Assembly (NCBI GenBank): GCA_017499595.2
Contig: CM039001.1
Coordinates: forward strand, 62,001-126,000
Length of the DNA stretch: 64,000 bases
Direction: 5' to 3'
From: Psilocybe cubensis
Taxonomy: Eukaryota
Shown: piece by piece, positions 1 to 31,650 of the stretch
Layout of the letters: every line of letters starts with the position of its first letter
Position numbering within the stretch: position 1 is the first letter of the stretch
Notes under the pieces: model-generated
The model's database searches: none
What the model was told of the DNA's origin: nothing
The model's input: only the letters and a program-made list of their open reading frames with translations
Program-made: the position numbers and the translations under genes

Positions 1-60
1 ATCCCTAACCCTAACCAAGGCTAATATGTGCTTTGTGATGTAGGTGTTACATTGTGTTAA
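1..60 (+). repeat. Subtelomeric repeat unit with telomere-like CCCTAA motifs (copy 1, truncated by window edge)
   Basis: ccctaaccctaacc followed by gctaatatgtgctttgtg..gtaggtgttac; a near-identical string occurs at ~16072 and ~20429. Confidence 0.75.
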
Positions 61-2479: not shown

Positions 2480-3109
2480 CGAAAGCTTCCTCTGCTGCGC
2501 GGCGGGGTGGGGGAGTCGGCGGCAGCGGCAGCGGCGGCGGAGGCGCGGGGGTGGCGGTGCAATGACATGCAGCAATGTGTGTGTCGTTGTGGGCGGCGAG
2601 CGAAGGTGGTGGGGGCAGCAACAGGCAGCGACGAGCAGTGAACAACAACGACACGCGTCCAGTCAGGTGACCTCTCTAGGTGGGACCGACGCTGGAGGCC
2701 GGCCTCCACTCGCGCGTATGACGCGCGTACGAATCGAGGCCGGCCTCAGGTGGCCTCGACGTGTTTATTTTTAGATGGAGGCCGGCCTCCAGTGCCTGTC
2801 AAAAATTATTTTTAGACGGAGGCCGGCCTCCAATGCCTGTCAAAGTTATTTTTAGACGGAGGCCGGCCTCCAGTGACCTCCATCTATTTGGAGGCCGGCC
2901 TCCAGTGACCTCCATCAATTTGGAGGCTGGCCTTGGTAAAATACACCTTTAATTGCATAGCACCTCCGTATGTACAAAATAAAATATTTTGAAAGTGTAT
3001 TTGGGGGTTTTTGGGGTCCAGGAATCCGAATCTGCCATCAGATTTCTGGAATTCTGAACAGGAGGCCCAATGCAACAAAGGCCCCCCCTTCGGGGGGGAA
3101 TAAGCCTAG
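2480..3109 (+). mobile_element. Non-autonomous Helitron-like element, copy 1 (5' boundary uncertain)
   Basis: GC-rich repeats, then a GGAGGCCGGCCTCC array (~2694-2935), a conserved ~170-bp tail, hairpin C7-TTC-G7 (3082-3098) and CTAG (3106-3109), matching the Helitron 3' signature (hairpin then CTRR). Confidence 0.65.
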
Positions 3110-4436
3110 GGTAAGATGACTAGTTATAAAAAATTTAACAAAATTACAGTACAGCAAGGCCGAGATGTATCAAAGACAAGACAGCAAAATGGCAGCGACA
3201 GGAGGCGAGTAGAGGCAGCGCGGCGGCAGCGACAGGCGGCGACGGCGGGACGACAGGCGGCGACGGCGGAATGACAGGCGGGGAGGGGAGGCGGCAGCGG
3301 CAGCGGCGGCCCGGTGTGGCGGCGCAACAACACGCAGCAGAGTGCGTGTCGTGGTGGGCGGCGAGTGGACGCGACGGCGGGACGACGCGCGGTGACGTCG
3401 TGACGACAGGCGGCGACGGCGGGACGACAGGCGTTGACAGCGGAATGACAGGCGGCGAGGCAGGCGGCAGCGGCAGCGGCGGCCCGGTGTGGCGGTGCAA
3501 CAACACGCAGCAGAGTGCGTGTCGTGGTGGGCGGCGAGTGGACGCGACGGCGGGACGACGCGCGGTGACGTCGTGACGACAGGCGACGACGGCGGGATAA
3601 CACGCGGTGACGGCTGAACGACATGCGGCAACGGCGGGACGACAGGCGGCGACGGCGGGACGACACGCGCTGACGGCGGAATGACAGGCGGCGAGGGAAG
3701 GCGGCAGCGGCATGACAGGGGACGAGGAGAGGCGGCAGCAGCAGCAGCGGCCCGGGTGTGGCGGCACAACAACACGCAGCAGAGTGCGTGTTGTGGTGGG
3801 CGGCGACTAGACGCGACGTCGGGACGACGCGCGGTGACGTCGTGACGACAGGCGGCGACGGCGGGATGACACGCGGTGACGGCTGAACGACAGGCGTCGA
3901 GTGGAGGTGGCGGCAGCAGCAGTGGCCCGGAGGTGGCAGCGCAACAACATGCAGTGGCAAGCGCAGGCGTCGGGCAGACGGCGAGCGCAAGCGTTGGGAC
4001 GGCAAGCGCTGGCGTTGGGACGGCAAGCGCTGGCATCGGGACGGCGAGCGCTGGCATCGGGACGGCGAGCGCTGGCATCGGGAGACAGGCGGGAGGCCGG
4101 CCTCCAGTGCCTGTCAAAAATTTATTTTTAGACGGAGGCCGGCCTCCAGTGCCTGTCAAAAATTTATTTTTAGACGGAGGCCGGCCTCCAGTGCCTGTCA
4201 AAAGTTATTTTTAGACGGAGGCCGGCCTCCAGTGGCCTCCATCAATTTGGAGGCCGGCCTCCGTAAATTACACATTTAATTATGTAGCACCTCCGTATGT
4301 ACAAAATAAAATATTTTGAAAGTGTATTTGGGGGTTTTTGGGGTCCAGGAATCCGAATCTGCCATCAGATTTCAGGATTTCTGAACAGGAGGCCCAATGC
4401 AATGAAGGCCCCCCCTTCGGGGGGGAATAAGCCTAG
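3110..4436 (+). mobile_element. Non-autonomous Helitron-like element, copy 2, directly downstream of copy 1
   Basis: Long GC-rich minisatellite (~3200-4090), five palindromes at 4092-4262, same tail, hairpin 4409-4425, CTAG 4433-4436. Confidence 0.65.
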
Positions 4437-5329: not shown

Positions 5330-6501
5330 TGCATTTTGCGAGTGTTTTGAGCTTCCGTTTCTTCCGAAAATTCCCATTTGCAAAGTGCAAATGAGACCGA
5401 GTGCTGCTCACCTAAAGCCGTCTGGTCTACATTGCATTGCAGTGTAGTTGTGATTAGTCAAACATATGTGTAATTTCATGAATATTTTGCCACCATTCAA
5501 TGACGACCATGGTTAGATGTCTGGGACAATGGGAATATGGAGATGGGAGGAGGGGAGCGAGAGCGAGAGCAATGAAGTGGCGTAGGTGGGAGACAAAGGC
5601 ACTGCGTATATGCATCATAGTACGCACATGCAAGGTGGTGGATGACGTGTCTCAACAGGTGGACTCAATGCGCGGAGGATGGACACTGAACTGCACTGAC
5701 ACCTTACAAAATGTACAGAGGAGCTGCAGGTTCGGAGTTTGAATGTCCTTGACAACAGCAAGGACAAACAACGCGACTCTTGGGCGGCGAGTGTCGGCGG
5801 TGGCGGGGGCTGCAACTGCGGCTGCGTGGGGGTGGCAGTGCAACGACACACAGCAGAGTGTGTGTCGTTGTGGGCGGCAAGTGGAGGCGGCGGCAGGACG
5901 AAAGGTGGCAAGTGGAGGCGGCGCGGCGGCAGCAACAGGCGACGAGTGGAGGCCGCGGTGGCAGAAGCGGCCCGGAGTGGCGGCACAATAACACGCAGCG
6001 GCAAGCAAAGGCGTCGGGACGGCGAGCGCAGGCGTCGGGCAGGCGGCGAGCGCAAGTGTTGGGACGGTGAGCGCAGGCGTTAGGAGACAGGCGGGAGGCC
6101 GGCCTCCACTCGTGCGTACGACGCGCGTACAAGTCGAGGCTGGTCTCAGGTGGCCTCGACACATTTATTTTTAGACGGAGGCCGGCCTCCAGTGCCTGTC
6201 AAAAAATATTTTTAGACGGAGGCCGGCCTCCAGTGACCTCCATCTATTTGGAGGCCGGCCTCCAGTGACCTCCATCAATTTGGAGGCCGGCCTCCAGTGG
6301 CCTCCATCAATTTGGAGGCCGGCCTCGGTAAAATACACATTTAATTACATAGCACCTCCGTATGTACAAAATAAAATATTTTGAAAATGTATTTGGGGGT
6401 TTTTGGGGTCCAGGAATCCGAATCTGGCATCAGATTTCAGCAATTCTGAATAGAATGCCCAATGCAACGAAGGCCCCCCCTTCGAGGGGGAATAAGCTTA
6501 G
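5330..6501 (+). mobile_element. Non-autonomous Helitron-like element, copy 3
   Basis: Palindrome array ~6094-6327, same tail, hairpin 6474-6490 with one mismatch, ends TTAG (6498-6501). Upstream 5330-5415 is similar to 26230-26313. Confidence 0.6.
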
Positions 6502-10234: not shown

Positions 10235-11959
10235 GGCGCCTCAAAGGGTGGGTATTCAATGGGCATATGGTTTCCAGCGGGCTCGGTTAAAGAAGAATCT
10301 AGCGATGATGTCGAGTCCTGTATACAATATGTTAGAAAACATCGTCACAGAATGAAATGTACAGCTTACAGGGTTCTTTGTTTTGCCTTTCGGTCCGTGG
10401 TGCTTGAATGTCCAGAGTACCCGTCCCTTTAAGATTAACGAATCGATTCCCGAATAGATAATTCCACCCCATAGCCACAAACGCGTTCCGAACGATGGCC
10501 GCAAGTTGCGCACTTCATGCAGATCCTTCTGCACCCATGACCTGTGCAACGTGTGCAACGAAGTATCCTACGATGACATGTCAGCAGCGGCTGCAACAGT
10601 GCCATCTGACGATTCCGCTTCACTAGGGTGCACAGCGTTCCAAGCAGCTTTGGCGGCAAGAATGCCGCTCTTCATCGCGTTATGGGTTCCTTTAATCTTT
10701 GCAATGTTGACGAATCCAGCGGAGAAGCCGACGAGAGCACCACCAGGGAAGTTTAGCTTGGGCACGGACTGCAAGCCTCCTTCGTTCAACACGCGCGCAG
10801 CGTAAGAGAGGCGTTCGGCTTTGGGGAATGTGAGGAGAGCGCGGAAGTATGGGTGGTGTTTCATGCGCTTTCGAGGGATGCTTCGTTAGCTATGAAAAAG
10901 GAATATCGCGCAAGAAAGCGCACCTGGAATTCACAATCCGGGCTCAGCCATGGATTTTTGTAATCCAGCCCAATTACTAGCCCCAGACTGACGAGCCCTC
11001 CATCCATGTGGTACACCCATCCACCGCCGTAAGTGTCTTTGTCTAGAGGCCATTCGAGCATGTGCACGACCTCTCCGGGTTTATGTTTCTCCGGATCGAC
11101 ACGCCAAACCTCCTTCAGACCGATTCCATACGTCTGGGGCTCTGCCTCCTTGCGAGGATTGTGCAAGATAATAGCTTGCTTCGACAGACTTCCGTGAGCA
11201 CCTTCGGCAAGAAGAGTTACCTTTGCACGGAACGCCATCCCAGGCTCAAACGAAGATTTCATGCGATAGTTCTTCGTCAAGCCAACTTCGTTGGTGATCA
11301 CGCCCTGCACGCTACGAAATTTGTTGCCCCATGGATTGGTGGAATCGGGTTCGTCGCTGAGAAGTAGCTGCGTGCCTGCGAAGCCGGGATATATCTCGAC
11401 GCCGTATTTGTTCTCGGCCACGCCGGCGAGCCACCTGGTAAATTGTGAGAGCGAAGCAACGTAGTTGCCCTTGTTAGACATTTGTGGGGGGTGGGGTATT
11501 GGCAGAGAGATTTTGGGGGTAAGGAAGAGCATTTTTGAAGAGGGTTTAGGGTTGTGTAAGAGGGTGGTCAGACATGGATGTCCAGTCTGGCAGCAATTCA
11601 TCCAGTGCGCGAGGTTCAATCACAGCACCAGAGACAATATGGGAACCTACACGAGATCTTCAATGCCCTGAGATAAGAACGGCGAGTTTCTGACTGCACG
11701 CACCTATTTCAGTGCCCTTCTCGAGCACAACAACACGGATTTCGTTCCCTTTTTCACGTTCGATCTGCTTCAGGCGAATCGCAGCACTGATACCAGCAGG
11801 TCCACCACCGACAATGCAGACATCGACCTCATCCTCCGCCCGCTCGACTGCGGCGGCGTTGAATGGCGCTGCCGAGGAGTCGTTCCTGTGCCAGACTGAG
11901 GTCTTGAAGGACCTTACCAGACTCAAAGCTGGCTTCAACGGTTTCCTGTACCGCAACAT
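10235..11959 (-). pseudogene. ETFDH: Electron transfer flavoprotein-ubiquinone oxidoreductase (ETF-QO) pseudogene
   Basis: Motifs [62 protein letters not shown], with GT-AG introns. Frameshift at ~11541-11553, in-frame TAG at 10568-10570, and homology ends after PIEYPPFEAP (~10235), so the C-terminal 4Fe-4S region is missing. Confidence 0.9.
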
Positions 11960-15900: not shown

Positions 15901-16005
15901 AACATAGCAGTTTACCAACTGCACCAGAACGCCGTGAAATGCACATTGGATACATTGGTACATACACACCAATCCTAACCTGCTACATATATAATTGTAT
16001 TTACC

Positions 16006-16110
16006 AACCCTAACCAGCCTAATCTGTGCTTTTATGGTATTATCAAATCCCAACCAACCCTAAAATCTAAACCCTAACCAACGCTAATATGTGCTTTGTG
16101 GTGGTGTATA
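16006..16110 (+). repeat. Subtelomeric repeat with CCCTAA motifs (copy 2)
   Basis: ccaaccctaacc..ctaatctgtgcttt..cccaaccaaccctaa..aaccctaaccaacgctaatatgtgctttgtgg. Confidence 0.75.
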
Positions 16111-20306: not shown

Positions 20307-20480
20307 ACCAACCCTAACCGGACTAATCTGTGCTTTTGTGGTATATCGAGTCCCAACCAACCCTAATGCTAAACCCTAAACCATCCTAATCTGTATTTTT
20401 GTGGTCACCACCAACCCTAAACTATAAACCCTAACCAATGCTAATATGTGCTTTGTGGTGTAGGTGTTACAATTGTTGTC
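20307..20480 (+). repeat. Subtelomeric repeat with CCCTAA motifs (copy 3, three sub-units)
   Basis: Three ~55-65 bp sub-units of the form ccctaa(a)cc..ctaatNtgtRYttt..gtgg; similar to 1-60 and 16006-16110. Confidence 0.75.
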
Positions 20481-26229: not shown

Positions 26230-27403
26230 GCATTTCGCGAGTGTTTCAAGCTTTCCTTCCTTGCAAAGACGCCAGTTCGCAAAGTGCAAATGAAACTGAA
26301 TGCTACTCACCTAGAGCCAGGTTTGTTCTGAGGGTTCACATCAATCACTGGCTAGCTATGAAAGCCGTCCGTTTTGCGTTGTGTTGCAGTGAGATTGGTA
26401 TTAATCAAATATATGCGTCATTTGAGACCATGGTTTTGTGAACCCTGAAGCGCACGATTGACACGGGAGGGTCGGAGTTTGAATGTCCTTGACAACAGCA
26501 AGGACAAACAACATGACTCTGGGGGTCGAGGGTCGGCGGCGGTGGCGGCTGCGAGTGCGGCTGCGTGGAGGTGCCGGCACAACGACACGCAGCAGATTGC
26601 ATGTTGTTGTGGGCGGCGAGTGGAGGCGGCGGCGGGACGACAGGTGGCGAGTGGAGGCGGTGCGGCGGCAGCAACAGGCGACGAGTGGAGGTGGCGGCGG
26701 CAGCAGCGGCCCGGGTGTGGCGGCGCAACGACACGCAGCAGAGTGCGTGTTGTGGTGGGCGGCGACTAGACGCGACGGCGGGACGACGCGCGGTGACGTC
26801 GTGACGACAGGCGGCAACGGCGGGATGACACGCGGTGACGGCTGAACGACAGGCGTCGAGTGGAGGTGGCGGCAGCAGCAGCGGCCCGGAGGTGGCAGTG
26901 CGACAACACGCAGCTGCGAGCGCAGGCGTCAGGCAGGTGGCGAGCGCAGGCGTCGGGATAGCGAGCGCAGGCGTCGGGAGACAGGCGGGAGGCTGGCCTC
27001 CACTTGCGCGTACGATGTGCGCATGACTCGAGGCCGGCCTCAGGTGGCCTCGACGTGTTTATTTTTAGTTGGAGGCCGGCCTCCAGTGCCTGTCACTTTT
27101 TATTTTTAGACGGAGGCCGGCCTCCAGTGCCTGTCAAAGTTATTTTTAGACGGAGGCCGGCCTCCAGTGACCTCCATCAATTTGGAGGCCGGCCTCCAGT
27201 GGCCTCCATCAATTTGGAGGCCGGCCTCCATAAATTACATATTTAATTATGTAGCACCTCCGTATGTACAAAATAAAATATTTTGAAAATGGATTTGGGG
27301 GTTTTTGAGGTCGAGGAATCCGAATCTGGCATTAGATTTCAGGAATTCTAAACAGGAGGCCCAATGCAACGAAGGCCCCCCCTTCGGGGGGGAATAAGCC
27401 TAG
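26230..27403 (+). mobile_element. Non-autonomous Helitron-like element, copy 4 (may extend upstream to ~24.8 kb)
   Basis: GC-rich repeats shared with copies 2 and 3, palindrome array ~26987-27229, tail, hairpin 27376-27392, CTAG 27400-27403. Confidence 0.65.
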
Positions 27404-27727
27404 GTAAGGACCCAGGTAAGCTATTTATACTCTAGACATGTGAATATTCCCATGTCGCGGTTACTCGGAGCCACGTAACCAGAGTACTCTATATCCATGT
27501 GATTCACATCACAGTCAATAACCCACGATGTCAAAGAACAAAAGTGTTGGATCCACTTTTGACAAGTTACCATGTGCCACATCGACCCGTGACACTCTGT
27601 TCATCAGAGACCTGTCTAACTTGACAATAAACATTGACAGATTTGTGATTGTCGGTAAGATACATGACAGCTGCGCAGCATCACTTCACGCGCTGTCATC
27701 GGATGTCTAGAACATTCCTTCTAAGAA

Positions 27728-27794
27728 TAGCCACTGAAGAGTCTATAAAGACGAAAGGGCTGGTTGTTGGGATCCCCCAACAGCCCTCTGGCTA
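27728..27794 (+). ncRNA. Type I hammerhead ribozyme
   Basis: Stem I tagcca/tggcta; core CUGAAGA (27734-40); stem II gtct/agac; GAAA (27753-56); stem III gggctg/cagccc; UC cleavage site (after 27788). All core nucleotides are present. Confidence 0.9.
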
Positions 27795-27860
27795 CTTTCC
27801 ATTTTAACTCACAGTTTAAACTAGTCGCTCGCACCTCGCTTCGCTCGGTGCTCGCTCCCC

Positions 27861-27902
27861 CCCTAAACCCTAAACCCTAAACCCTAAACCCTAAACCCTA
27901 AA
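27861..27902 (+). repeat. Interstitial telomeric tract (CCCTAAA)6
   Basis: Six perfect heptamer copies. Confidence 0.95.
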
Positions 27903-28149
27903 GCTCGACAAGGATGTTCTTAATCCTGACGACAACGCTAATACGGCGCATGATATTAACAACGCCTCGAACGATTCCCGCTCCGGTGGGTCTCTAGTAG
28001 GGCCGCGCGAAATTGTGTTGCCGGGCGAAGTCAACGATGCTCCGTCTCCCATGTCTATAAATCTTCACGCGGGAAGTGATGATCCCATGGAAGGCGATCT
28101 GGAGTACGTCGAACGTCAAGATGTCCTTCTCGATAACTTATTCAGATAA
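27901..28149 (+). mobile_element. 5'-truncated ORF tail capped by telomeric repeats, probably the 3' end of a Penelope-like element ORF
   Basis: Stop-free frame KLDKDVLNPDD...DLEYVERQDVLLDNLFR* begins at the telomeric tract. It is followed by ~580 bp of non-coding sequence and another CCCTAAA tract. The assignment rests on context only. Confidence 0.4.
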
Positions 28150-28726
28150 AGCAGCACACGCTTAGATGTGTAAAGGTCTACACATAGGCCTTCTGCGGCG
28201 TGTCTAAACTAGACGTTTAATGCTAAAACCTGGTAATTCCTCTTCTGTCGTCGTATGACTTCGTCGAGGTTCTGTCCTGCTAGTTTGGGAGTGTAATTAG
28301 ATTTCCCTTGGGGTCGCCCATCTAGTAAAGATCAGGTAGTACGCTGGAAACAGCTGGTCTGGGCCTTAGGGTATCCAGTCAGTGACTGCTCCAACGTCCC
28401 GATTCCGAAAGGACAAAGGTGGTTCGACTCGTGAACGAATGAAAATGCATTACTCTGATGGCTTGCCATAGCCGTAATGGATAAGTTCAGCACTCTTGCG
28501 TTATAATATTATTCCTAACGAAAACCTATATTTGTTTTCACAGGACTTACGGTCCAACCGCGCTCGTCGATGAGGGTATCGGCGAATATTCTTGGGAAGC
28601 GGTGTCCACATAACCAGTGGTAGAGAGTTTTTAACACATTCTAAAAAAACCCTAACCGTAAGTCGACTCGATTAATCTCGAGATACTTTGTTGTATTGAT
28701 TATTCGGCGGTTTTGGCTTTAGCTAA

Positions 28727-28767
28727 CCCTAAACCCTAAACCCTAAACCCTAAATGCCCTAACCCTA
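28727..28767 (+). repeat. Interstitial telomeric tract (CCCTAAA)4 plus degenerate units
   Basis: Four perfect heptamers at 28727-28754, then tgccctaacccta. Confidence 0.95.
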
Positions 28768-28996
28768 CTAGCGTGGTAGGGTTGTCACATGACGTGATGA
28801 GTCACGCGACCTAGTAAGTCACATGACTCGGCCGGCATTTCGGCGATCAAGCCGAAATTCAAGCGGAGTTTAAAATTCGGAGATATTACTAATCCTCGGA
28901 GAAATTTGCCAAACTTCGGAACAACAAAGGTGAAAACTCGCTCCGAGGTTTCTTTAACTTCGGACCTCGGATTAATATAGGTAAAATGGCTATATA

Positions 28997-29066
28997 TGGA
29001 CCTGATGAGCCTTATAAAAAGGCGAAAAAGTGGAAGGGAGCTTCTCCAAGCCCCCACTTTTGTCCA
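28997..29066 (+). ncRNA. Type I hammerhead ribozyme
   Basis: Stem I tggac/gtcca; CUGAUGA (29002-08); stem II gcctt/aaggc; GAAA (29024-27); stem III aagtgg/ccactt; UU cleavage site (after 29061). Confidence 0.85.
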
Positions 29067-29133
29067 CAAGCCTTAGGCCATCCAGCCTTTTCTAACCAAC
29101 TCGCAGCTCGCTTCGCTCGCTGCTCGTTGGGCA

Positions 29134-29155
29134 CCCTAAACCCTAAACCCTAACC
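29134..29155 (+). repeat. Interstitial telomeric tract
   Basis: ccctaaaccctaaaccctaacc, fused directly to the RT fragment. Confidence 0.9.
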
Positions 29156-29417
29156 TTGGCAAAATCAATGTAAAGAAGCATGTCAAGGAAAGGCTGAGCC
29201 TTTGAAGCGGACCATTCTATTACACAGCCGGCGAATGTTAAAGTCTTCATAATGTTTACGGCTTCTAGTTCTGAAGAAGCGTAAACAATTGCTAGACAAT
29301 CGTCGATGTACCTGCCATAGAAAGCTACGGACAGGTGATTCATAATTCCACTTGAGCGCTCAAAATGCCAGCCGTAGAGATTGGCTAGATTAGGCCAAGA
29401 CACGACTCCCATTGTTA
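29156..29417 (-). mobile_element. Penelope-like element (Coprina-type) reverse transcriptase fragment
   Basis: TMGVVSWPNLANLYG...FYGRYIDDCLAIV...IEWSASKAQPFLDM matches PLE RT motifs (MG..sP.lANly, RYIDD, FLD). It is truncated on both sides and adjoins telomeric repeats. Confidence 0.8.
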
Positions 29418-29830
29418 CTATTTTATAATTTTTTTGAATAGAGATTTTTATTTGGCTAACAATGTATATATATCTATTAATATTCCATATGCATATTAAT
29501 TTTGAAATGTATATTGCATAGTAACATATAAACAAACCATAATATATTTAGTATAGCACAAGTTTAAATAAGTAAGAAAGATGAATAATAAAATTTTTAA
29601 TTGAATATCTTCATAAAACAAATAACCGGAGACCAGAAAACAAGTAGTCATAGTTGATATAGGCAAATGAAAGGATGCAAAATGAGACAAAATGTATATA
29701 CTTGTAGTATATGTATCAAAAGAAAAACATATAAAATAATTATAGACATAGAAATAAGAATTGTTAACCAAAAGAAATGAAATTCACTTGCATAGCTTAA
29801 CATATTCAATGAATAACATAAAATATATTG
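29418..29830. other. Strongly AT-rich low-complexity segment
   Basis: Abrupt switch to A/T-dominated sequence at the RT fragment boundary. Confidence 0.7.
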
Positions 29831-31650
29831 ACGTGCGCACATACATACACATATCAAGGCCGGCAAGTCTCTGCTTCCGGATACATACCAGCACTCCGGG
29901 GCCCAATTGTCAAATGGACGATGCAAAGTTGGTGGTCAGACTATTGGGCTGTGGATTACTTGTACAATGAATGAGAAAGGGCCTTTGGGAGACAATGTAC
30001 GGCCAGCTGTGGCACCTCCCTGATGACAATATTGGTAGCAGCGGTGGTGGGACTGTGGTGACAAAAACATAGCGAGGTTGCGGAAATTGAGGAATCAGGA
30101 AAGGTGATGGTGGCGGCAATATTGGTGGTGGATTTAGAGCCTGACCCAACAAAATGAGAACCGATTGAACGACCGTGACTCACCATCTGGAAGCGGGCTG
30201 AATATTGCCAATACCAGGGCTCTCATCCACGTCCAGAACCCAATATCCAACAATGAATATTTGCGTACGACATTGATGAGCATAAATTCCCTAGCAAGGA
30301 GCGTAGTGTTGTTTGGTTCGTGAATGGCAGTAGCGGGTGATATTGAAGGCGGTGCGTGGGCATTGATTGCGCAAAAGTCAACAGTGTAATTTTTTGTTAG
30401 GAAGCGGTGATTGAGTTGGAAGAAGTGGAAGAGGGGGAGGTAAACGAGAACGAGGACTCAGGACTCACTTGGTGTGAATATAAAGTAGTGTACCCTCAAT
30501 TGTATTCACTTTGCGGGTTTGTTTGTGTTGTTTGCGAATGCCAAGGTCGTTCGGGGAAATGCGCAATCATAACGAGAGGTAAGACGGAGAGGAATAGGGA
30601 CCCAAACACCTGAGAGGGAAACACAGACAACGAGCGGCGGTGATACTGCCAATTTGAGGGACCAAGAACCAGTGGCGGCAGAGCCGTCAATGTACGGTGA
30701 TGCAAACACACCTTGTTCCTGCTCGCGGCTCCTCCCCTCCTTCCCTTCCAACGACGGTTCATTTACCCCATCTCATCTCTTTCCATTCTACTCTGTCTCC
30801 AGCTCGCTCTCCTTGCATCTCAAGTTGTCGTTAGTGGTAGTAGTGGAAGACGAAGAAGAGGCATCGCTTTGTTTGTTCTTGTTGTGCATATGGCGGAGGC
30901 AAAAATTGGCCTTGTGCACAGCGTTTCCTGCTTGACTTTTACCTCACACGTACATTTTCCCTCAAGCGCCGTGAGTTTAAAACAGCAGTTTTTTTAAAAC
31001 GTTAACCACAGCTGATAATGGGTAGACACCCATGGTTCCTCTCAGTGATATCCAGGACATGAATGCGCTGTTTGGCTCTTCGCTGCTCTTCGTCGTAAAT
31101 GGCAGCGCAGACGTCGCGATGGGCAGGAACAGGTTAAACGTTAAAAACCCGAACGCAAAGGGGTCTCCAAGCGCCACGGCCAGCCATAAGCGGGAGACAG
31201 GCTATATGGTCCAGTATTATTGTCAGGAACGTGGGTGTGTTGTGTCGCTAGAATAATGATTGTGGCTGAGACGGAGAAAGCTGAGTTCGTCAATCCATAT
31301 ATTCCAGGTATGGTGGGGCAATGCAAAGCAATTTAACGGCATGATTCGACATTAGTTCGTTGTCTATGACTCCCCATGGAACGTGAAATGGCTGGGGAGG
31401 ACGGATAAGCAGGTACGGCGGTTTACTACAATTCTTCTTCATAATCCATCGATCTTTCACACTGACAGGCGTACAAGGCGCGTTATCGGACAAACCCTTC
31501 ACACCCTTTCTACTACAATCGAAAAACGATGATGAGCTTTCACGCGCCGAGAGAGGTCCAAGTCGACATTAACACTGAACAGCACATCACGACGGCCCCG
31601 TCGCCCTCCGCAGGCCATCGCCCTCAAGCCGTTCAGATTGCGTAACACCG

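What the first reader, a model, noticed from the sequence alone, without database searches (positions are those of the whole stretch)
27404..29417. Stack of telomere-capped retroelement modules: a fossil chromosome end extended by Penelope-like elements
Seen in sequence: three modules (27404-27902, 27903-28767, 28768-29155), each ending in (CCCTAAA)n on the + strand. Two carry a hammerhead about 65-70 nt before the tract, one starts with a truncated ORF, and a PLE RT fragment adjoins the stack. Established: endonuclease-deficient PLEs (Coprina in basidiomycetes, Athena in rotifers) attach to telomeres through C-rich repeats at their RNA 3' ends and carry hammerheads. Inference: this is a former terminus extended several times by different families and now buried at least 27 kb inside.
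Basis: partly seen in the sequence, partly recalled or inferred. Interest (0 to 1): 0.75.

Follow-up and report, generated by a model that had tools for sequence, protein, structure and literature searches.

The report
Buried telomere-retroelement tails in a mushroom
This is a relic of a former chromosome end, made of the tail ends of two telomere-attaching retroelements of a known fungal kind, and its layout points to an intron inside telomere-like repeats and a DNA hairpin beside the priming site that may show how such elements copy themselves onto chromosome ends.

Summary
The sequence features are real: three (CCCTAAA)n tracts, two type I hammerheads 66-67 nt before a tract, an ORF tail and a Penelope-like RT piece. 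The reading needs correcting. Against 80 loci of endonuclease-less relatives, "modules" 2 and 3 are one 5'-truncated Coprina-type element. Its middle tract is element-encoded and split by a 65-nt GT-AG intron-like segment, seen in 22 families of relatives. Module 1 is the terminal repeat of a second family. The RT piece lies on the opposite strand, so it is the healed substrate or an inversion, not the modules' gene. The template carries only one telomere unit, 31-93 nt before the ATG and downstream of the predicted ribozyme cut. The other two tracts therefore look telomerase-made. Beside the priming unit, 17 of 31 families have a C-GNA-G mini-hairpin on the cDNA strand. Best reading (0.7): a former end extended twice and later internalized. 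Copy number, empty sites and the distance to the present telomere stayed unchecked. The scan noted the intron and the hairpin before, on other DNA of this genome. Verdict: a known kind of element with testable mechanistic details.

The parts
26468..27403 (+). Left neighbour: repeat with four copies in the window, ending in a C7-TTC-G7 hairpin and CTAG/TTAG (Helitron-like 3' end, label from recall). It abuts element A with no telomere cap. Left limit not fixed.
   Evidence: self-BLAST; ends printed; hairpin at 27376-27392
27404..27867 (+). Element A: terminal repeat (pLTR) of a Coprina-type family, about 460 nt, no ORF
   Evidence: hammerhead region 95% identical over 41 nt to L110, L112, L113; hairpin 97% over 36 nt to L111; start-to-hammerhead 330 nt, within the 267-769 nt seen in relatives
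27728..27794 (+). Type I hammerhead with long helix III and loop II TATAAA; predicted cut after 27788 (CUC, inferred from the hammerhead consensus)
27824..27858 (-). Hairpin that on the cDNA (G-rich) strand has a GCGAAGC cap and tandem GA/GA mismatches
27861..27902 (+). Six perfect CCCTAAA units: inferred telomerase cap on truncated element B and priming target of element A (the first unit may be from A's template)
   Evidence: templates hold one unit
27903..29140 (+).
27904..28149 (+). Acidic ORF tail (81 codons) with GDLEYV; weak, motif-level likeness to the C-termini of relatives
   Evidence: motif in 10 of 124 relative tails; best BLASTP 23.1 bits, reached by 1 of 200 shuffles and by 3 of 415 unrelated window peptides
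28645..28767 (+). Element-encoded telomere-like tract, split by the intron-like segment
28658..28722 (+). 65-nt GT-AG intron-like segment (GTAAGT...TTGAT...TAG); removing it gives an in-phase CCCTAA run. Splicing not shown.
28997..29066 (+). Type I hammerhead, loop II TATAAAA; predicted cut after 29061 (UUU, inferred)
29096..29130 (-). Second cDNA-strand hairpin: same GCGAAGC cap and GA/GA pairs, different stems
29134..29155 (+). Three telomere units: B's priming unit plus an inferred short telomere added on a break
29158..29417 (-). Inverted internal piece of an endonuclease-less Penelope-like RT gene (MG..P.LANLY, YGRYIDD, QPFLDM), cut at both ends, no stop codon
   Evidence: 23 of 26 aligned family-invariant positions kept

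Best explanation
A former chromosome end, facing lower coordinates, was extended twice by endonuclease-less Coprina-type retroelements and later internalized. (1, inferred) The chromosome ended inside an inverted RT piece and gained a short TTTAGGG telomere. (2, inferred) Unspliced RNA of family B paired through its single CCCUAA unit with the G-rich overhang. An RT made elsewhere extended the chromosome 3' end through the hairpin, hammerhead, intron-split tract, 3' UTR and ORF tail, and stopped after about 1.23 kb. Telomerase capped the end (six units). (3, inferred) Family A primed on that cap and added at least 457 nt. (4, inferred) Other DNA was joined or inserted on the distal side, leaving at least 27.4 kb to the left. 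Shown: the parts, their polarity and their match to the layout of relatives. The predicted ribozyme cut lies 72 nt upstream of the priming unit. The template was therefore either cut RNA that was circularized or jumped across the cut, or uncut read-through RNA. I favour the first only slightly (about 55:45).
For: RT relatives are 1.1-1.3 kb-codon single ORFs with a DKN motif and no GIY-YIG domain (0 of 39 by motif; 0 of 35 by Pfam at E 0.1). In the 80 loci, tandem telomere-like tracts were found only on the RT sense strand, which fixes the polarity. Upstream repeats carry one unit or none (26 of 26), while 11 of 22 other hammerhead units carry 2-4. The six-unit tract joins two families at a mid-ORF truncation, so neither template explains it. 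One locus, L047, matches B at the hammerhead (86% over 35 nt), the exon/5' splice junction (20 of 20 nt) and the GDLEY tail. Coprina copies point away from the telomere with repeats on both sides (PMC13159263). Internalized telomeric-retroelement relics are documented in Pyricularia (PMC8381367).
Against: No genome, so neither the present chromosome end nor other copies were seen; read-level copy number and empty sites stayed unchecked. In L081, L112 and L113 the sequence after the terminal repeat is the element's own internal tract, so a multi-unit tract is not always telomerase-made; this could apply to the three-unit tract. B's ORF tail match is weak. No relative aligns along the whole of B's UTR, so 'one element' rests on layout and short motifs. 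The RT tree has no named reference and leaves the piece unresolved.
Confidence: 0.7

Rival explanations
1. Three separate additions: module 2 came from a different family that primed with its internal (pre-intron or post-intron) tract on a telomere capping module 3.
For: Four perfect units sit in the middle tract. Internal tracts could serve as second priming or jump sites, as the tandem terminal repeats of L081, L112 and L113 suggest.
Against: The tract follows an intron-like segment exactly as in relatives, where it is element-internal (19 of 25 loci with stop and hammerhead). The spacing (280 nt from tract to hammerhead) is in range. L047 matches both modules.
Confidence: 0.12
2. The stack was built at a real telomere elsewhere and copied or moved here as a block (ectopic repair, or carried by the adjoining Helitron-like repeat), so this site was never an end.
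For: Element A has no distal cap and abuts the 3' end of a repeat with four copies in the window. The left 27 kb holds a gene fragment (ETF-QO piece) and more repeats than the right (20% against 12% covered by within-window repeats).
Against: The stack lies beyond the repeat's apparent 3' terminus, and the other three copies are followed by different sequence. The C-rich polarity agrees with an end to the left.
Confidence: 0.12
3. The inverted RT piece and element B come from one complex insertion or fold-back event of the same subfamily, so the three-unit tract is a template-switch joint and not an older healed telomere.
For: Proteins with the GDLEY tail score higher against the RT piece (8 of 84 proteins, Mann-Whitney p 2e-4, kin not independent). 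L047 is the first locus hit for the RT piece. Inverted truncated copies are common in endonuclease-bearing PLEs (PMC8557442).
Against: Published inversions are at the 5' side, this one is at the 3' side. Only 1 of 80 loci holds an inverted RT piece, and it is divergent (L050, 34% identity). The piece is only 61-65% identical to its best relatives.
Confidence: 0.2
4. Assembly chimera across short telomeric repeats.
For: Junctions are repeats, and they were not checked against reads.
Against: The tracts are only 22-42 nt, shorter than a read, and the parts are in a biologically coherent order. Eight of 20 listed runs, in three coded studies (one may be the source), hold half or more of the sampled words of 26900-30000; this shows presence, not adjacency.
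Confidence: 0.04

Closest known systems
Coprina clade of endonuclease-deficient Penelope-like elements (Gladyshev and Arkhipova 2007, not held, recalled; described in PMC8557442 and PMC13159263)
   Same: Single RT ORF with DKN motif and no GIY-YIG in relatives; hammerhead next to reverse-complement telomere sequence; sense strand pointing away from the telomere; 5' truncation at telomeric repeats; direct terminal repeats of about 400 nt.
   Different: Only 3' ends remain, at least 27 kb inside, with an inverted RT piece underneath. The intron inside the internal tract, the cDNA-strand mini-hairpin and the single priming unit in the 5' UTR are not in the passages I read.
Athena / Terminon elements of bdelloid rotifers (PMC6431247 passages; Arkhipova et al. 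2017 not held)
   Same: Hammerhead plus short reverse-complement telomere stretch; 5'-truncated copies capped by repeats in head-to-tail chains.
   Different: Fungal single-ORF relatives of about 4.5 kb; no accessory ORFs; TTTAGGG repeat.
Fungal PLE hammerheads (Cervera and De la Pena 2014, PMC4209133)
   Same: Type I topology with a large helix III; the paper proposes cleavage and circular RNA templates, and reports that the Serpula motif cleaves as a monomer.
   Different: Cleavage of these two was not tested. The TATA-like loop II is not mentioned in the half of the paper that I read.
MoTeR relics and interstitial telomeres of Pyricularia (PMC8381367)
   Same: Short 5'-truncated 3' ends of a telomere-targeted retroelement with vestigial telomere repeats at internal positions, read as internalized ends.
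   Different: MoTeRs are another class of non-LTR retroelement that inserts into telomere arrays; the passages read mention no hammerhead.

Membership tests
Coprina (EN-less PLE) | RT of the PLE type (DKN/DKG motif, motifs 4-7) | tested here: met
   The piece holds motifs MG..P.LANLY, YGRYIDD, FLDM and is 52-67% identical to proteins whose alignment has a nearly invariant DKN; RVT_1 in 12 of 35. Applies to the RT piece and its relatives, not to A or B directly.
Coprina (EN-less PLE) | No GIY-YIG endonuclease | tested here: met
   0 of 39 long relatives by motif, 0 of 35 by Pfam at E 0.1. Tested on relatives; the window copies are fragments.
Coprina (EN-less PLE) | Groups with named Coprina RTs in a phylogeny | tested here: inconclusive
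   Tree of 62 rows on 87 columns has no named reference and no supported placement; two named hits are Agaricomycete proteins (Sanghuangporus, Lyophyllum).
Coprina (EN-less PLE) | Hammerhead in the terminal repeat next to reverse-complement telomere sequence | tested here: met
   both hammerheads match those of RT-bearing loci.
Coprina (EN-less PLE) | Polarity: sense strand is the C-rich strand, 5' end toward the telomere | tested here: met
   Met for A and B. Not met for the RT piece, which is inverted.
Coprina (EN-less PLE) | Copies at present chromosome ends of this genome | not testable with these tools
   No genome held; no read-level result.
Hammerhead ribozyme type I | Core CUGANGA / GAAA / NUH with three helices | tested here: met
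   triplets CUC and UUU.
Hammerhead ribozyme type I | Self-cleavage | not testable with these tools
   Needs an assay.
Spliceosomal intron | GT-AG ends, branch-point-like motif, short fungal length, conserved position | tested here: met
   22 families, 50-67 nt, branch-point-like motif in 16 of 22, in-phase joint in 19 of 22; window segment 65 nt.
Spliceosomal intron | Spliced RNA observed | not testable with these tools
   No RNA holder listed.
Helitron (left neighbour) | 3' hairpin plus CTRR, insertion between A and T, 5' TC (recalled) | tested here: inconclusive
   Hairpin and CTAG/TTAG present, but the next base is G, C, A, G in the four copies; 5' end not found.

The most novel reading that the evidence does not exclude
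Agaric Coprina elements use a multi-part terminal device not found in the papers I could read. The hammerhead cuts about 70 nt upstream of a single telomere-pairing unit that lies in the 5' UTR, so the telomere primes internally on a circular or jumped template. The first cDNA made folds into a nuclease-resistant C-GNA-G mini-hairpin with tandem GA pairs that protects or hands over the short strong-stop product. A conserved intron inside a second telomere-like tract switches the RNA between two forms, with the unspliced form inserted here. Loop II of the ribozyme may double as the TATA box. Relics like this one would then be countable markers of past chromosome ends.
Probability: 0.35. Interest if true: 0.75.

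Novelty: new member of a known kind. Interest (0 to 1): 0.48.

Why it matters
If right, the locus records the history of a chromosome end: break, healing, two retroelement additions, internalization. This was described for MoTeR relics in Pyricularia, and I found no such account for Coprina in my searches. The family-wide layout also makes open questions about Penelope-like elements testable: what the hammerhead is for, why introns are kept (called unknown in PMC8557442), and how a telomerase-related RT primes without an endonuclease. The hairpin, the intron and the single priming unit each give a specific mutation to test.

Tried and rejected
Whole-genome check: none held. No read-level depth or junction result was obtained. 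No RNA holder listed; this says nothing on expression. Pfam on the RT piece and ORF tail: nothing significant. PDB search with the RT alignment: two non-significant hits. RT relatives in viral contigs: none of 67 candidates confirmed. Hairpin-plus-CCCTAA pattern in viral contigs: 45 loci, none with an upstream hammerhead or an RT, so the hairpin motif alone does not mark these elements. Names for RT relatives were not obtained. RT tree unresolved. No further RT remnant in the window: only three single weak hits outside the piece. No protein-level match for module 1 beyond hammerhead and hairpin artefacts. No target-site duplication was evident by eye, and the repeat scan of 27905-30200 showed only the tracts and short chance-level pairs. 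Rejected: three families with three caps; the RT piece as the modules' own gene; the branch point lying inside the telomere-like repeats (a YAG precedes the second tract). Literature: nine searches gave no paper describing the intron-split tract or the cDNA hairpin in the listings or passages read. The two primary papers (2007, 2017) are not held, and no supplements were opened, so these details may be in print.

Full report
Observation. The three tracts are there: 27861-27902, 28727-28767 and 29134-29155, all C-rich on the + strand. A 14-mer of the repeat matches 10 times in the window and never in 100 shuffles. Two hammerhead cores at 27734 and 29002 fold as type I ribozymes with a long helix III. 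They end 66-67 nt before a tract. By the hammerhead consensus (recalled) they cut after 27788 and 29061. Rfam finds only the first, below threshold. The RT piece (29158-29417) is real but lies on the minus strand. The host looks like an agaric mushroom: HET, ricin-B lectin and ETF-QO domains in the window and Agaricomycete names among the RT hits. Earlier scan notes call it Psilocybe; I did not check that.

The RT. The piece found 142 relatives among 447 candidates; the 120 listed are 52-67% identical. None of the 39 relatives of 1000 aa or more has a GIY-YIG motif after the catalytic DD. None of the 35 aligned ones hits a GIY-YIG Pfam model, and 12 hit RVT_1. The alignment has the DKN motif that PMC13159263 lists for Coprina. 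The piece keeps 23 of 26 aligned invariant positions. A tree without named references leaves it unplaced, so clade membership rests on layout and motifs.

Layout of relatives. One metagenome scan gave 103 confirmed loci from 406 candidates, of which the best 80 were kept. Tandem telomere-like tracts occurred only on the RT sense strand. The recurring order is: hammerhead, hairpin, one CCCTAA unit, 31-93 nt, ATG, ORF, stop, 3' UTR with an internal telomere-like tract, spacer, hammerhead, hairpin, CCCTAA, then flanking repeats. Of 26 hammerheads followed by the ORF start, 23 have one telomere unit and 3 have none. Of 22 others, 11 have 2-4 units (two units with no tract, L097 and one hammerhead-like hit in L052 were left out). 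So the template supplies one pairing unit, and extra units come from the target.

The middle tract is part of an element. In 22 of 38 loci with at least 700 nt after the stop (L108 dropped, stop miscalled), a telomere-like motif is followed at once by a 5' splice site. The same motif occurs in 0 of 38 antisense strands and 0 of 38 coding controls. With patterns relaxed after seeing the data, 31 loci in 22 families have a complete 50-67 nt GT-AG segment, and two hits lack a 3' site. Sixteen of 22 families have a branch-point-like motif, and in 19 of 22 removal leaves the repeat in phase. The window has this at 28658-28722. In 19 of 25 loci with both a stop and a downstream hammerhead, a YAG-tract joint lies between them. 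L047 matches the window at the hammerhead of module 3, at the exon/intron joint of module 2 and by the GDLEY tail. Modules 2 and 3 are therefore best read as one 5'-truncated element, B. The limits: the ORF-tail match is weak (three unrelated window peptides score as high), no relative aligns along the whole UTR, and splicing is not shown. Module 1 has a hammerhead like that of L110-L113 and is a terminal repeat of another family, A.

The hairpin. Both elements have a hairpin just before the priming unit. On the G-rich strand it reads stem, GA, stem, GA, GC-GAA-GC, GA, stem, GA, stem, with different stems in A and B. Among relatives alone, 17 of 31 hammerhead families have a C-GNA-G triloop hairpin on that strand, 0 of 31 on the RNA strand, with 0.39 expected from shuffles. 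Loops are GAA 14, GCA 2, GTA 1, and 13 have GA/GA pairs. GCGNAGC and CCGNAGG are the very stable, nuclease-resistant DNA mini-hairpins named in PMC5009754. Against over-reading: 14 of 31 families lack it; the motif was defined from the window; families are related; six of the 17 (CCGAAGG) read as a cUUCGg tetraloop on the RNA strand (recalled as stable); and the motif also occurs in 45 viral loci with no hammerhead or RT.

Mechanism. The polarity puts the old end toward lower coordinates, as for Coprina-1_Alen. The simplest order is a break in an inverted RT piece, a short telomere, element B (1.23 kb), a six-unit cap, element A, then distal DNA. The six-unit tract is the best evidence for telomerase, because it joins two families at a mid-ORF truncation. 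The three-unit tract is weaker, because L081, L112 and L113 show element-derived tracts after a terminal repeat. The RT piece may also share a subfamily with B. The predicted cut lies 72 nt upstream of the priming unit, so cut RNA cannot end in the repeat. Either the cut RNA is circularized or jumped, as proposed in PMC4209133 and in line with internal initiation shown for an endonuclease-bearing PLE (PMC11167929), or uncut read-through RNA is used, as in the Terminon model (PMC6431247). The intron was kept, so the template was unspliced; PMC8557442 calls the meaning of intron retention unknown. A has no distal cap and abuts a Helitron-like repeat end, so how the 27.4 kb or more on the left was added is open. 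Duplicative repair of failed telomeres is the precedent (PMC8381367).

What stayed open. No genome was held and no read-level result was obtained. Copy number, junction support, empty alleles and the distance to today's telomere are unchecked. Eight of 20 listed runs in three coded studies hold at least half of the sampled words, which shows presence only.

Literature seen. PMC4209133: parts 1-2 of 4. PMC11167929: part 1 of 4. PMC13159263: passages and section 17. PMC8557442, PMC6431247, PMC8381367, PMC5009754, PMC7473861 and bioRxiv 10.64898/2026.07.22.740005: passages. Gladyshev and Arkhipova 2007 and Arkhipova et al. 2017: not held, known from citing passages and recall. No supplements were opened. 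Nine searches showed no description of the intron-split tract or the cDNA hairpin, but the unread primary papers may have one. Earlier scan notes report both features, intact copies and a stacked array at a chromosome end in this genome. I had reached these features before looking (notes), and the notes are leads, not support.

Verdict. A real, internalized relic of a known kind of element. Interest 0.48; the mechanistic details would deserve 0.75 if confirmed.

Noticed in passing
window 27744-27749 and 29013-29019; loci L046-L125: Loop II of the hammerheads is TATA-like: 30 of 31 families by a loose pattern, 12 with TATAAA or TATATA, with the ATG 105-165 nt after the GAAA. It could be a promoter inside the ribozyme or only a structural preference for A/U.
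   Followed up: partly
window 2691-3109, 3674-4436, 5728-6501, 26468-27403: Four copies of a repeat with GC-rich 21-nt arrays, 32/41-nt palindromic arrays and a terminal C7-TTC-G7 hairpin plus CTAG/TTAG. Helitron-like, but the base after the end is not T in any copy.
   Followed up: partly
window 1-50, 16003-16102, 20307-20460: A repeat family with degenerate ACCAACCCTAAC / CCCTAAA motifs, C-rich on the same strand as the stack, followed by CTAAT...TAG (intron 3' end-like). Possibly older telomere-derived sequence.
   Followed up: no
window 10861-11619 (-): ETF-ubiquinone oxidoreductase fragment (Pfam PF21162) in the repeat-rich left part; may be a captured or broken copy.
   Followed up: no
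window 48572-52268, 53208-55000, 56477-57625: Duplicated HET-domain genes, ricin-B-type lectin genes and a glycoside hydrolase-like ORF (label from recall), gene families often found near fungal chromosome ends.
   Followed up: no
window 28761-28783: An 8-bp hairpin overlaps the end of the internal tract, and 28826-28869 holds another inverted repeat.
   Followed up: no
L081 (6230-7900), L112 (4527-4779), L113 (4623-5060), L059 (4394-4653): After the 3' terminal repeat the sequence restarts at the element's own internal tract or hairpin, giving tandem hammerhead units that resemble retrozyme-like repeats or template jumps.
   Followed up: partly
L057, L059-L063, L068, L072, L075, L078: These families have a different hairpin (A-rich or longer loop) at the same place before the priming unit, with no GNA cap.
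   Followed up: no
L050 44-256: A divergent inverted RT piece (34% identity) upstream of a truncated copy; the only inverted RT piece in the 80 loci.
   Followed up: partly
window 29420-29850: Very AT-rich stretch directly beyond the RT piece, with no clear terminal repeats.
   Followed up: partly
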